Part shown: positions 53,085 through 56,000 of the stretch, piece by piece
Position numbering within the stretch: the stretch's first letter is position 1
Layout: every line of letters starts with the position of its first letter
Assembly: GCF_003019035.1 (NCBI RefSeq)
Contig: NZ_CP027447.1
DNA: 64,000 nucleotides
Strand: one strand, 5' to 3'
DNA from: Escherichia coli
GTDB lineage: Bacteria > Pseudomonadota > Gammaproteobacteria > Enterobacterales > Enterobacteriaceae
Program-made: the position numbers

Positions 53085-56000
53085 AACAGACTGGAAAGAA
53101 ACCGCAGATGGCATCTATAAGGCGACCTATACCGCCTACACCAGAGGCAGTGGGCTTACTGCGAAGCTGTTAATGCAAAACTGGAATGAAGATTTGCATA
53201 CCGCTGGATTTATCATCGACGCCAACCCGCAGTCAGCGAAAATTGCGACATTATCTGCCAGCAATAATGGTGTGCTCGCCAATGAGAATGCAGCAAACAC
53301 CGTCTCGGTCAATGTCGCTGATGAAGGAAGCAACCCAATCAATGATCATACCGTCACGTTTGCGGTATTAAGCGGATCGGCAACTTCCTTCAACAATCAA
53401 AACACCGTAAAAACGGATGTTAATGGTCTGGCGACTTTTGATCTGAAAAGTAGTAAGCAGGAAGACAACACGGTTGAAGTCACCCTTGAAAATGGCGTGA
53501 AACAAACGTTAATCGTCAGTTTTGTCGGTGACTCAAGTACCGCACAGGTTGATCTGCAGAAGTCGAAAAATGAAGTGGTCGCTGACGGCAATGACAGCGC
53601 CACAATGACCGCGACAGTCCGGGATGCAAAAGGCAACCTGCTCAATGACGTCAAGGTCACCTTCAATGTTAATTCAGCAGCAGCGAAACTGAGCCAAACC
53701 GAAGTGAATAGCCACGACGGGATCGCCACAGCTACGCTGACCAGTTTGAAAAATGGTGATTATACGGTTACGGCCTCTGTGGGCTCTGGTTCTCAGGCTA
53801 ATCAACAGGTGATTTTTATCGGTGATCAAAGTACTGCAGCCCTGACCCTCAGTGTGCCCCCAGGCGAGATCACCGTCACCGACACAGCGCCTCAACAGCT
53901 GACGGCAACCTTGCAGGATAAAAATGGCAACCCACTAAAAGATAAAGAAATCACTTTCTCTGTGCCAAACGACGTCGCAAGTCGGTTCTCGATTAGCAAC
54001 AGCGGAAAAGGCATGACGGATAGCAACGGGATTGCAATCGCCTCCCTGACCGGCACGTTAGCGGGCACGCATATGATCACGGCTCGTCTGGCTAACAGCA
54101 ATGTCAGCGATGCACAGCCAATGACGTTTGTGGCGGATAAAGACAGAGCGGTTGTCGCTCTACAAACATCGAAAGCGGAAATCATTGGGAATGGCGTGGA
54201 TGAGACGACGCTGACAGCAACAGTGAAAGATCCTTTTGATAACGTGGTTAAAAATCTGTCAGTAGTCTTCCGCACCTCTCCCGCAGACACGCAACTGAGT
54301 CTGAACGCGCGTAATACTAATGAGAACGGTATTGCTGAAGTTACCCTTAAGGGCACGGTTTTGGGTGTTCATACAGCCGAAGCCATACTGCTTAACGGCA
54401 ACAGAGATACGAAGACAGTCAATATTGCGCCCGATGCCAGCAACGCGCTAGTCACGCTGAATATCCCTGCTCAACAGGTGGTGACGAATAACAGTGACAG
54501 CGTGCAGCTGACGGCGACGGTGAAAGATCCGTCGAATCATCCGGTGGCGGGAATAACGGTGAACTTCACCATGCCACAGGACGTGGCGGCAAACTTTACC
54601 CTTGAAAATAACGGTATTGCCATCACTCAGGCCAATGGCGAAGCGCATGTCACCCTCAAAGGCAAAAAAGCGGGCACGCATACGGTTACCGCAACGCTGG
54701 GTAACAATAATGCCAGCGATGCGCAACCAGTCACATTCGTGGCGGATAAGGACAGCGCGGTTGTCGTTCTGCAAACATCGAAAGCGGAAATCATTGGGAA
54801 TGGCGTGGATGAGACGACTCTGACGGCAACAGTGAAAGATCCTTTTGATAACGCAGTAAAAGATCTACAGGTTACCTTCAGTACCAACCCGGCAGATACT
54901 CAACTTAGTCAGAGCAAAAGCAATACTAACGACAGTGGTGTTGCTGAAGTTACCCTTAAGGGCACGGTTTTGGGTGTTCATACAGCCGAAGCCACACTGC
55001 CTAACGGCAACAACGGTACGAAGACAGTCAATATTGCGCCCGATGCCAGCAACGCGCAGGTCACGCTGAATATCCCTGCTCAACAGGTGGTGACGAATAA
55101 CAGTGACAGCGTGCAGCTGACGGCAACGGTGAAAGATCCGTCGAATCATCCGGTGGCGGGAATAACGGTGAACTTCACCATGCCACAGGACGTTGCGGCA
55201 AACTTTACCCTCGAAAATAACGGTATTGCCGTCACTCAGGCCAATGGCGAAGCGCATGTCACGCTCAAAGGCAAAAAAGCGGGCACGCATACGGTTACCG
55301 CAACGCTGGGTAATAACAATACCAGTGATTCGCAGCCGGTAACGTTTGTGGCGGACAAAACCTCGGCTCAGGTTGTCCTGCAGATGTCAAAAGATGAGAT
55401 CACAGGTAATGGCGTCGATAACGCAACGCTAACTGCAACGGTTAAAGATCAGTTCGACAATGAGGTGAACAATCTTCCGGTAACATTCAGCTCAGCCTCT
55501 TCAGGACTCACCCTGACCCCGGGAGTGAGTAATACCAATGAGTCTGGCATCGCGCAGGCCACTCTCGCAGGCGTTGCCTTTGGTGAGCAGACGGTCACTG
55601 CATCACTGGCTAATAATGGTGCCAGCGACAACAAAACTGTGTACTTTATTGGCGACACAGCGGCGGCAAAAATTATCGAGTTGACGCCTGTCCCAGACAG
55701 CATAATCGCCGGTACCCCGCAGAACAGCACCGGCAGCGTCATTACCGCCACAGTCGTTGATAATAATGGCTTTCCGGTGAAAGGTGTGACTGTGAACTTC
55801 ACCAGCCGAACAAACTCTGCCGAAATGACGAATGGCGGCCAAGCCGTAACGAACGAACAGGGTAAGGCAACCGTCACTTATACCAATACCCGCTCCTCGA
55901 TAGAATCAGGAGCGAGACCGGATACCGTTGAGGCCAGTCTGGAAAATGGTAACTCCACGCTTAGCACATCAATTAATGTCAACGCGGATGCGTCTACAGC

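What the first reader, a model, noticed from the sequence alone, without database searches (positions are those of the whole stretch)
54126..55343. Recent 609-bp tandem duplication of two Ig-like domains inside yeeJ
Seen: adjacent 203-codon units at about 90% peptide identity, far higher than between other Big_1 repeats in the gene, lengthening the adhesin relative to the 2358-aa K-12 YeeJ I recall. Such repeats vary by recombination and may modulate adhesin reach; they are also prone to assembly collapse or expansion.
Basis: partly seen in the sequence, partly recalled or inferred. Interest (0 to 1): 0.3.

Follow-up and report, generated by a model that had tools for sequence, protein, structure and literature searches.

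The report
Two-domain repeat in adhesin gene yeeJ
The E. coli adhesin gene yeeJ here carries a real but old, already published tandem duplication of two Ig-like stalk domains, whose copy number varies between strains by recombination with no known effect on function.

Summary
Window 54126-54734 and 54735-55343 match at 549 of 609 nt (90.1%) and about 88% of residues. No other lag in the gene exceeds 54%.

1. This is the published long (UMN026-type) yeeJ allele of Martinez-Gil et al. 2017. It differs from K-12 by 906 bp (three Ig domains), not 609 bp.
2. The duplication is not recent. Fifty-one sites distinguish copy 1 from copy 2 in eight diverse long alleles. Synonymous divergence between the copies (0.24) exceeds that between the window and K-12 alleles (0.09).
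3. Identity is mosaic. A 90-nt patch is 64% identical while the flanks are 91-98% identical, and some strains show gene-conversion tracts.
4. The K-12 short allele is a derived deletion. It runs between two 23-nt 'LTATVKD' motifs and leaves a chimeric Ig domain.
5. Copy number does vary. Among 5,426 complete genomes, roughly 1,612 carry the short allele, about 51 carry one unit, about 1,106 carry two units and 14-39 carry three. The one-unit and three-unit alleles are the reciprocal hybrids expected from unequal crossing-over, and intact examples of each exist.

An assembly artefact is unlikely. The finding is ordinary repeat dynamics in a known adhesin, so interest is low.

The parts
51025..59007 (+). 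yeeJ coding sequence, long allele. It encodes 2660 aa from the ATG at 51025, or 2642 aa from the K-12-equivalent ATG at 51082. It is an inverse autotransporter adhesin.
   Evidence: The ORF is listed and start codons. The identical RefSeq record NZ_CP051751.1 annotates a 7983-bp CDS. The sequence is 96-97% identical to K-12 yeeJ on both sides of a 906-bp indel.
51454..52281 (+). Inverse-autotransporter beta-barrel domain, aa 144-419.
   Evidence: Pfam IAT_beta PF11924 scores 374 bits against a cutoff of 22.3.
52645..58446 (+). Array of 19 Ig-like (Big_1 / Invasin_D3) domains, D1-D19, forming the passenger stalk.
   Evidence: Pfam finds 16 Big_1 and 17 Invasin_D3 stretches. A custom HMM gives the domain table.
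54115..54723 (+). Repeat unit 1 (U1). It covers the tail linker of D5, all of D6 (B-type) and most of D7 (A-type): 203 codons, two Big_1 domains.
   Evidence: U1 is 90.1% identical in nt to U2. Pfam Big_1 scores 126.6 bits over two stretches. The AlphaFold model has mean pLDDT 93.6 and shows two beta-sandwich domains. Its best PDB matches are intimin D0-D1, InvD, InvE, FdeC and invasin.
54724..55332 (+). Repeat unit 2 (U2). It covers the tail of D7, all of D8 (B-type) and most of D9 (A-type).
   Evidence: Same evidence as for U1. Pfam Big_1 scores 128.3 bits over two stretches.
54244..54333 (+). Divergent patch within U1. Its partner in U2 is 54853-54942. The two differ at 32 of 90 nt, against 28 of 519 nt in the rest of the unit. 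The patch covers unit residues 44-73, which are the central strands and loops of the B-type domain.
   Evidence: Alignment. Fisher exact test p = 6e-14. dS is about 2.2 in the patch, 0.29 in the head and 0.088 in the body. Strand mapping comes from the model. In strains KE58, MB53 and FDAARGOS_944 the U1 patch has been replaced by U2-type sequence.
54211..55116 (+). The 906-bp segment missing from the K-12, BL21 and CFS3246 short alleles. Because of the flanking repeat it can equally be placed at 54234-55139. It removes most of D6, all of D7 and D8, and the head of D9.
   Evidence: BLAST of the window gene against the K-12 gene. Base-level junction alignment. The same junction is present in three short alleles. 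It matches the published 906-bp fragment (PMC5595812).
54211..54233 (+). Left copy of a 23-nt direct repeat, CTGACAGCAACAGTGAAAGATCC, which encodes LTATVKD in strand B of D6. The right copy lies at 55117-55139 in D9 and matches at 21 of 23 nt. The K-12 deletion junction falls inside this repeat.
   Evidence: the motif is aligned in all A-type and B-type domains; strand E30-38.
54386..54416 (+). Interval holding the U1/U2 crossover in the one-unit alleles of AR_0077 and EC15. Its paralogous position in U2 is 54995-55025. It lies among the 41-68-nt runs of perfect U1/U2 identity.
   Evidence: Diagnostic-site coding. Runs of identity.
58723..58923 (+). Weak match to the intimin C-type lectin domain at the tip of the passenger.
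   Evidence: Pfam Intimin_C scores 21.8 bits, below the cutoff of 27. The literature describes this domain for YeeJ (PMC5595812).

Best explanation
The feature is an old, in-frame tandem duplication of a 609-bp cassette in the passenger stalk of the inverse autotransporter adhesin YeeJ. The cassette encodes two Ig-like Big_1 domains, one B-type and one A-type.

It is the core of the published long (UMN026-type) yeeJ allele. The cassette sits inside an older alternating A-B-A-B-A-B domain array (D5 to D10). It most likely arose by unequal recombination between the conserved tails of A-type domains (inferred).

Since then the two copies have behaved as recombining paralogues (shown). (a) Short gene-conversion tracts move sequence between them. 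(b) Unequal crossing-over in the long identical stretches of the body gives one-unit and three-unit alleles with reciprocal hybrid units. (c) A deletion between the 23-nt LTATVKD motifs of D6 and D9 removed 906 bp. That deletion created the K-12 short allele, which has a chimeric but functional Ig domain.

Mechanistically, each unit adds two rigid beta-sandwich domains to the rod that holds the lectin-like tip away from the outer membrane. Copy number therefore sets stalk length (inferred). The only published test found no difference between long and short alleles in biofilm formation.
For: Repeat and identity matrix.

Fold: each unit contains two Big_1 domains. The model has pLDDT 93.6, and its best structural matches are intimin, InvD, InvE, FdeC and invasin.

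Age: 51 U1/U2 diagnostic sites are shared by eight diverse long alleles. Orthologous units are 94-99% identical, against 86-90% for paralogous units in six of the eight alleles and 93% and 96% in the two converted ones. dS between U1 and U2 is 0.24 overall, against 0.09 between the window and K-12 alleles.

Direction of the K-12 change: the K-12, BL21 and CFS3246 alleles have a U1-type head (96-98% to U1, 89-92% to U2). Their A-type body is U2-type, up to 100% identical to NCTC11121 and KE58 U2, against 92-94% to U1. B-type body sequence is absent from short alleles. The junction lies in the 23-nt LTATVKD motif.

Conversion: KE58, MB53 and FDAARGOS_944 carry a U2-type patch in U1.

Reciprocal products: AR_0077 has an intact 7374-bp CDS with a single unit that is U1 on the left and U2 on the right. 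PCN033, 18KM2445 and O166:H15 have intact 8613-bp CDSs whose middle unit is U2 on the left and U1 on the right.

Population classes.

Literature: the 906-bp, three-Big-domain variant is expressed at 277 kDa against 246 kDa, with no functional difference detected (PMC5595812).
Against: The 90-nt patch has near-saturated synonymous divergence (dS about 2.2) while its flanks are at 0.09-0.29. A single duplication followed by clock-like divergence does not predict this. It needs either import of diverged sequence into one copy or later homogenisation of the flanks.

No outgroup species could be examined because the genome-contig scan returned nothing useful. The absolute age and the state before duplication are therefore inferred only from E. 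coli alleles.

The one-unit alleles seen here are recombinant derivatives, not ancestors, so the ancestral one-unit form has not been observed.

The functional role of stalk length is untested, and the only published test was negative.

The population counts come from a piece-joining heuristic and are approximate.
Confidence: 0.8

Rival explanations
1. There was no discrete young duplication. D5 to D10 is an ancient (A-B)x3 array, and the high identity of D6-D7 to D8-D9 comes entirely from gene conversion (concerted evolution) that has not yet erased the 90-nt patch.
For: The patch retains divergence close to that of the ancient pairs. It is 64% identical in nt with dS about 2.2. D5/D7 are 62% identical with dS 1.4. 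Conversion tracts between the units are seen directly in KE58, MB53 and FDAARGOS_944. Moderate lag-609 identity of 62-77% continues on both sides of the zone, which shows an older repeat of the same period.
Against: The high-identity zone is about 640 nt long, almost exactly one period (609) plus a short junction homology. A tandem duplication predicts this, whereas conversion tracts have arbitrary ends. In the patch, D6 and D8 are still closer to each other than either is to D10. The head region has a uniform intermediate dS of 0.29, with fixed differences shared by all alleles.
Confidence: 0.12
2. This is a recent, lineage-specific duplication that arose in this strain or its close relatives.
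For: Identity is 90% overall. It reaches 96% over the body as a whole and 98% over its central stretch.
Against: About 1,100 complete genomes carry the same two-unit structure. Eight sequenced long alleles from hosts including O157:H7, O178:H19 and NCTC strains share the same 51 diagnostic differences. Orthologous units are more similar across strains than paralogous units are within a strain. dS between the units exceeds dS between alleles. The K-12 deletion allele already records the U1/U2 distinction.
Confidence: 0.04
3. The second copy is an assembly artefact, that is, a repeat expansion in this assembly.
For: Long, nearly identical repeats in adhesin genes are a known source of misassembly. 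The YeeJ paper cites upaH as an example. Some variant records look error-prone: EC15 and BS-04 are frameshifted.
Against: The two copies differ at 60 of 609 positions, so reads map to one copy or the other without ambiguity. The window is 100% identical to a complete genome. The same structure and diagnostic sites recur in eight independently assembled long alleles, and about 1,100 complete genomes have the two-unit spacing. The CDS is intact. The 277-kDa long protein has been cloned and detected experimentally.
Confidence: 0.02

Closest known systems
yeeJ UMN026 'long' variant versus yeeJ MG1655 'short' variant (Martinez-Gil et al. 2017, Sci Rep 7:11326, PMC5595812)
   Same: It is the same gene in the same locus. 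It has the same 906-bp extra segment encoding three additional Big domains relative to MG1655. [quoted passage not shown]
   Different: The paper describes two variants and does not resolve the internal structure. This analysis finds that the long allele contains a 609-bp two-domain tandem duplication. It finds that the short allele is a deletion derivative with a chimeric Ig domain. It finds that intact one-unit (7374-bp CDS) and three-unit (8613-bp CDS) alleles also exist, and that conversion tracts occur. The UMN026 sequence itself was not fetched.
Other inverse autotransporters with Big_1 stalks: intimin, invasin, InvD/InvE, FdeC
   Same: They share the architecture of an IAT beta-barrel, tandem Big_1 Ig-like domains and a lectin-like tip. 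The modelled unit matches intimin D0-D1, InvD, InvE, FdeC and invasin in Foldseek.
   Different: YeeJ has many more domains (19 here). Sequence identity to those structures is only 16-25%. For those proteins, variation in domain number is mostly described between species or paralogues rather than as copy-number alleles of one cassette (my own knowledge).
Repeat-number polymorphism in other surface adhesins (for example Bap/Esp C-repeats, alpha C and Rib proteins of streptococci, and the UpaH and Ag43 variants cited by the YeeJ paper)
   Same: In-frame tandem repeats encoding whole domains expand and contract by homologous recombination and change protein length.
   Different: Those repeats are usually near-identical and highly variable in number. 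Here the copies are 10% diverged, and the two-unit state is stable in most of the long alleles (roughly 1,106 of 1,279 genomes that carry the B-type domain). This comparison rests on my own knowledge and was not tested here.

Membership tests
Inverse autotransporter (type Ve secretion) adhesin, YeeJ orthologue | Inverse-autotransporter beta-barrel domain located N-terminal to the passenger | tested here: met
   Pfam IAT_beta PF11924 scores 374 bits against a cutoff of 22.3, covering aa 144-419.
Inverse autotransporter (type Ve secretion) adhesin, YeeJ orthologue | C-terminal passenger built from tandem Big_1 Ig-like domains | tested here: met
   Pfam finds 16 Big_1 stretches totalling 847 bits. 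A custom HMM finds 19 domains. The modelled unit consists of two beta-sandwich domains that match intimin, invasin and FdeC.
Inverse autotransporter (type Ve secretion) adhesin, YeeJ orthologue | N-terminal LysM peptidoglycan-binding domain | tested here: inconclusive
   Pfam LysM scores 15.8 bits, below the cutoff of 20.9, at aa 78-99. The domain was shown experimentally for K-12 YeeJ (PMC5595812).
Inverse autotransporter (type Ve secretion) adhesin, YeeJ orthologue | C-type lectin-like domain at the tip | tested here: inconclusive
   Pfam Intimin_C scores 21.8 bits, below the cutoff of 27.
Inverse autotransporter (type Ve secretion) adhesin, YeeJ orthologue | Orthology to K-12 b1978 by sequence and synteny | tested here: met
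   The flanks of the indel are 96.2-96.8% identical in nt to K-12 yeeJ. The gene order mtfA, tRNA-Asn, yeeJ, yeeL (GT9), shiA, amn is conserved.
Long (UMN026-type) yeeJ allele | An extra 906 bp in the passenger, encoding three additional Big domains relative to MG1655 | tested here: met
   The window gene is exactly 906 bp longer than the K-12 gene from the equivalent start codon. The indel maps to 54211-55116 and covers the D6 body through the D9 head. The definition comes from PMC5595812.
Long (UMN026-type) yeeJ allele | Direct sequence identity to yeeJ of strain UMN026 | not tested
   The UMN026 record was not fetched. O157:H7 EDL933, from the phylogroup E strains the paper lists as long, is collinear with the window.
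Tandem duplication maintained and varied by unequal homologous recombination | Head-to-tail, in-frame copies with identity far above that of other repeats in the gene | tested here: met
   Identity is 90.1% at lag 609, against at most 54% at any other lag. The period is 203 codons.
Tandem duplication maintained and varied by unequal homologous recombination | Reciprocal contraction and expansion products with complementary hybrid units exist in the population | tested here: met
   The one-unit alleles have a unit that is U1 on the left and U2 on the right (AR_0077, EC15). The three-unit alleles have a middle unit that is U2 on the left and U1 on the right (PCN033, 18KM2445, O166:H15).
Recent, strain-specific duplication | Paralogous copies within a strain are more similar to each other than orthologous copies are between strains | tested here: not met
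   U1 compared with U1 across strains, and U2 with U2, is 94-99% identical. U1 compared with U2 within a strain is 86-90% in six of eight alleles. Fifty-one fixed diagnostic sites separate the two.

The most novel reading that the evidence does not exclude
The 609-bp two-Ig-domain cassette may act as a stalk-length dial for YeeJ. Alleles with a partial unit, one, two or three units (about 2340, 2457, 2660 and 2870 aa) would be generated recurrently by recombination and sorted by selection. Selection would match the adhesin's reach to the thickness of the surrounding O-antigen or capsule layer or to the host niche. In that reading the K-12 short form is a secondary loss. The 90-nt patch that resists homogenisation would mark a functionally distinct surface on D6 compared with D8.
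Probability: 0.15. Interest if true: 0.4.

Novelty: already known. Interest (0 to 1): 0.2.

Why it matters
The finding matters mainly for annotation and for typing yeeJ.

- Length differences in yeeJ between strains are real alleles rather than misassemblies, and they fall into discrete classes.
- The K-12 reference allele, which is widely used for surface-display engineering, is a deletion derivative that carries a chimeric Ig domain.
- SNP or GWAS analyses that map reads to K-12 yeeJ will mis-handle the 906 bp that K-12 lacks.

If stalk length affects adhesion when long O-antigen or capsule is present, the natural series of alleles would be a ready-made test set. The only published comparison found no difference.

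Tried and rejected
- Tandem Repeats Finder returned nothing because its maximum period of 500 is below 609. I used the repeat finder and lag analysis instead.
- A protein database search with D4-D11, meant as a survey of protein lengths, returned only E. coli and Shigella fragments. Full-length proteins did not appear, so it gave no length information.
- The single genome-contig scan for outgroup orthologues returned only an unrelated Acidobacteriales hit. The 8-residue patterns found no Escherichia relative. The age of the duplication relative to speciation therefore could not be tested.
- I looked for an intermediate ancestor. The one-unit alleles found (EC15, AR_0077) are U1/U2 recombinants derived from two-unit alleles, not ancestral forms.
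- NCTC11121's shorter annotated CDS (7107 bp) is a frameshift split, not a length variant.
- H17/F2_81 and O145 RM10425-C1 carry IS3 insertions. EC2001 has a large internal deletion.
- I tested positive selection as the cause of the divergent patch and rejected it. dN/dS is 0.14 and dS is near saturation.
- Literature searches for reports of one-unit or three-unit yeeJ alleles, or of a tandem duplication in yeeJ, found nothing beyond Martinez-Gil 2017.
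Full report
**1. What is there**

The finding lies inside one long ORF, 50950-59007 on the + strand. The window is 100% identical to E. coli SCU-301 (NZ_CP051751.1). In that record the gene is a 7983-bp CDS, 51025-59007 in window coordinates, annotated 'Ig-like domain-containing protein'.

The gene is yeeJ. It is 96.2-96.8% identical to K-12 b1978 on both sides of one indel. It sits in the conserved context mtfA, tRNA-Asn, yeeJ, yeeL, shiA, amn.

Pfam finds an inverse-autotransporter beta-barrel (374 bits), 16 Big_1 stretches and 17 Invasin_D3 stretches. LysM and Intimin_C match only weakly, below their cutoffs. A custom HMM resolves 19 Ig-like domains, D1 to D19, between 52645 and 58446.

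**2. Checking the observation**

- In frame, peptide identity is 88.2-88.7%.
- The lag-609 high-identity zone runs from about 54106 to 54745.
- Over all in-frame lags, 609 gives 0.90. The runner-up is 1218 at 0.54, and all other lags are at or below 0.50.
- D6/D8 are 86% identical in nt and D7/D9 are 89%. No other domain pair exceeds 62% in nt or 51% in aa.

**3. Anatomy**

Domains D5 to D10 alternate between two subtypes. The A-type domains are D5, D7 and D9, with 104-residue spacing. The B-type domains are D6, D8 and D10, with about 99-residue spacing. This older period-2 pattern explains the 0.54 identity at lag 1218.

The young repeat unit is U1 at 54115-54723 and U2 at 54724-55332. Each unit comprises one B-type and one A-type domain.

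Each unit scores about 127 bits for Big_1 over two stretches. An AlphaFold model of U1 has mean pLDDT 93.6 and shows two beta-sandwich domains. Its best PDB matches are intimin D0-D1, intimin C-terminal fragment, InvE, InvD, FdeC and invasin.

Identity between U1 and U2 is strongly mosaic.

| Region | Window coordinates | nt identity | dS |
|---|---|---|---|
| Head | 54115-54243 | 91% | 0.29 |
| Patch | 54244-54333 | 64% (32 of 90 differ) | about 2.2 |
| Body | 54334-54723 | 96-98% | 0.088 |

The excess of differences in the patch is significant (Fisher p = 6e-14). dN/dS in the patch is 0.14, so positive selection does not explain it. In the model the patch covers the central strands and loops of the B-type domain, unit residues 44-73.

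**4. Relation to K-12**

The window gene is 906 bp (302 codons) longer than K-12 yeeJ when both are counted from the equivalent start codon. The difference is not 609 bp.

K-12 lacks window 54211-55116. Because of a flanking repeat, the missing segment can equally be placed at 54234-55139. The junction lies inside a 23-nt direct repeat, CTGAC(A/G)GCAAC(A/G)GTGAAAGATCC, which encodes the conserved LTATVKD strand of D6 and of D9.

K-12 therefore carries a chimeric domain made of a B-type head (from D6) and an A-type body (from D9).

- The head is U1-type. It is 96-98% identical to U1 heads and 89-92% identical to U2 heads.
- The body is U2-type. It is 100% identical to the U2 of NCTC11121 and KE58, and 92-94% identical to U1 bodies.
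- BL21 and CFS3246 share the same junction.
- B-type body sequence is absent from all short alleles.

The short allele is therefore a derived 906-bp deletion of a two-unit allele, and the long allele is not an insertion. The 906 bp equals one 609-bp unit plus one 297-bp B-type domain.

**5. Age**

I extracted U1 and U2 from eight diverse long alleles: the window, WP8-S18-ESBL-07, O157:H7 EDL933, NCTC11121, O178:H19, GF54, KE58 and MB53.

- Orthologous units are 94-99% identical.
- Paralogous units within a strain are 86-90% identical in six of the eight alleles.
- Fifty-one sites separate U1 from U2 in essentially all alleles.
- dS between U1 and U2 is 0.24 overall. dS between the window and K-12 alleles is 0.09.

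The duplication is therefore older than the diversification of yeeJ alleles in E. coli, and 'recent' is not supported.

**6. Ongoing recombination**

In KE58, MB53 and FDAARGOS_944 the U1 patch has been replaced by U2-type sequence. MB53's U2 carries a U1-type tract. These are gene-conversion tracts.

One-unit alleles:
- AR_0077 has an intact 7374-bp CDS, which is 7983 minus 609.
- EC15 has the same structure but is frameshifted and looks error-prone.
- In both, the single unit is U1-type up to about 54386 and U2-type from about 54416.
- Each carries the U2 signature of a different parental allele, so these look like independent events.

Three-unit alleles:
- PCN033, 18KM2445 and O166:H15 JNE070796 have intact 8613-bp CDSs encoding 2870 aa.
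- The middle unit has a U2-type head and patch and a U1-type tail.
- This is the reciprocal product of the same kind of unequal crossover.

**7. Population frequencies (approximate)**

I used synthetic queries that join the unique left flank, ending at 54100, to the unique right flank, starting at 55360. The search tool joins two pieces when the gap between them is at most half the query length plus 500. Varying the query length therefore counts genomes by gap class.

| Query length | Join threshold | Genomes with at least 80% coverage |
|---|---|---|
| 200 nt | 600 | 1612 |
| 600 nt | 800 | 1663 |
| 2000 nt | 1500 | 2769 |
| 3200 nt | 2100 | 2808 |

The expected gaps are 353, 650, 1259 and 1868 nt. 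The counts imply about 1,612 short alleles, about 51 one-unit, about 1,106 two-unit and at most 39 three-unit among 5,426 complete genomes.

Row spans confirmed each class. Fourteen three-unit genomes were seen directly, as single 2427-nt matches to a synthetic three-unit query.

An independent count with the D6 body gives 1,279 genomes with 1-3 places and a median of 2. That is consistent with these numbers.

The counts are heuristic. Short query pieces can miss divergent alleles, and IS-bearing genes can fall into the last class.

**8. Comparison with what is known**

Martinez-Gil et al. 2017 (PMC5595812) reported two yeeJ variants.

- The UMN026 variant carries an extra 906-bp fragment encoding three additional Big domains. 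[quoted passage not shown]
- Both variants were expressed, at 277 and 246 kDa.
- The two were indistinguishable in biofilm assays.

The window allele is that long variant, so the feature is already known.

My analysis adds five things that I did not find in the searched literature:
- the internal structure as a 609-bp duplication;
- the polarity from long to short, with a chimeric domain in K-12;
- the mosaic and conversion pattern;
- the intact one-unit allele;
- the intact three-unit alleles.

**9. Mechanism and function**

*Shown.* The duplication, its age relative to the alleles, the conversion tracts, the reciprocal crossover products and the deletion junction are all shown by the sequence data.

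*Inferred.*
- The duplication arose by unequal recombination between A-type domain tails. The identity zone is about 640 nt, which is one period plus about 31 nt of junction homology.
- The K-12 deletion arose by short-homology recombination or slippage at the 23-nt motif.
- Each unit lengthens a rod-like stalk. From my own knowledge, Big_1 domains in invasin are roughly 3.5-4 nm each (Hamburger et al. 1999). The window allele's stalk would then be of the order of 10 nm longer than K-12's.

No functional consequence is known.

**10. What remains unexplained**

The near-saturated synonymous divergence of the patch inside an otherwise 91-98% identical unit is not explained. Either diverged sequence was imported into one copy, or the flanks were re-homogenised after an older duplication. 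I rate the conversion-only rival at 0.12. Outgroup orthologues would decide the question, but my single genome-collection scan failed.

**11. Verdict**

The repeat is real and correctly located. It is not an artefact, not recent and not new. It is ordinary recombinational dynamics of a domain repeat in a known adhesin, with some additional allele classes documented here.

Noticed in passing
window 39814-50700 (tRNA-Asn at 39814-39889; integrase genes at 40051-41313 on + and 42629-43513 on -; Rhs core protein at 45643-49422 on +; small ORFs at 49389-49778 and 49782-50084): About 11 kb is inserted between tRNA-Asn (asnT) and yeeJ. It carries two tyrosine-recombinase/integrase genes, an HTH gene and an orphan Rhs element core protein followed by two small ORFs that could be immunity genes. 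In K-12, AR_0077, PCN033 and others, asnT lies only about 310 bp upstream of yeeJ. This looks like an integrative island at asnT.
   Followed up: partly
window 59268-60320 (- strand): The glycosyltransferase family 9 gene downstream of yeeJ (yeeL) is intact here at 350 aa. In K-12 MG1655, yeeL (b4497) is annotated as a pseudogene.
   Followed up: no
window about 56231-56706; locus L026 (ATCC 25922) 5325-8132: Roughly 2,000 genomes that lack intact yeeJ, including B2 strains such as ATCC 25922 and ST131, still match 130-475 nt of the D12-D14 region at 94-98% identity. In ATCC 25922 this is a yeeJ remnant. It consists of a 750-nt beta-domain ORF plus a 2.1-kb frameshifted Ig-like pseudogene. It lies between the yersiniabactin island (fyuA) and yeeL-shiA.
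   Followed up: partly
loci L023, L024, L025 (three-unit alleles), CDS 1211-9823: The three-unit CDS is 8613 bp, which is 21 bp more than 7983 plus 609. Some two-unit alleles (KE58, WP8) are annotated at 8007 bp. There is therefore at least one further small in-frame length difference elsewhere in yeeJ that I did not locate.
   Followed up: no
locus L022 (E. coli BS-04), about 3715-3740: This short-type yeeJ has an extra 14-nt A-rich insertion (…CCACAAAACAAAAAAAAAAGTG…) exactly at the LTATVKD deletion junction, which frameshifts the gene. It is probably a sequencing or assembly error but could be a real slippage product.
   Followed up: partly
loci L003 (O145 RM10425-C1) 6250-7463 and L017 (F2_81) 6140-7353: Independent IS3-family insertions interrupt long-type yeeJ within or just after the repeat region. 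EC2001 (L005) has a large internal deletion that joins window position about 51739 to about 54966. An ST410 clone is reported to carry a premature stop in yeeJ. Inactivation of yeeJ appears to be common.
   Followed up: partly
window 7917-8397 (+ strand): In the identical RefSeq record, yedL (a GNAT family N-acetyltransferase) is annotated as a frameshifted pseudogene.
   Followed up: no
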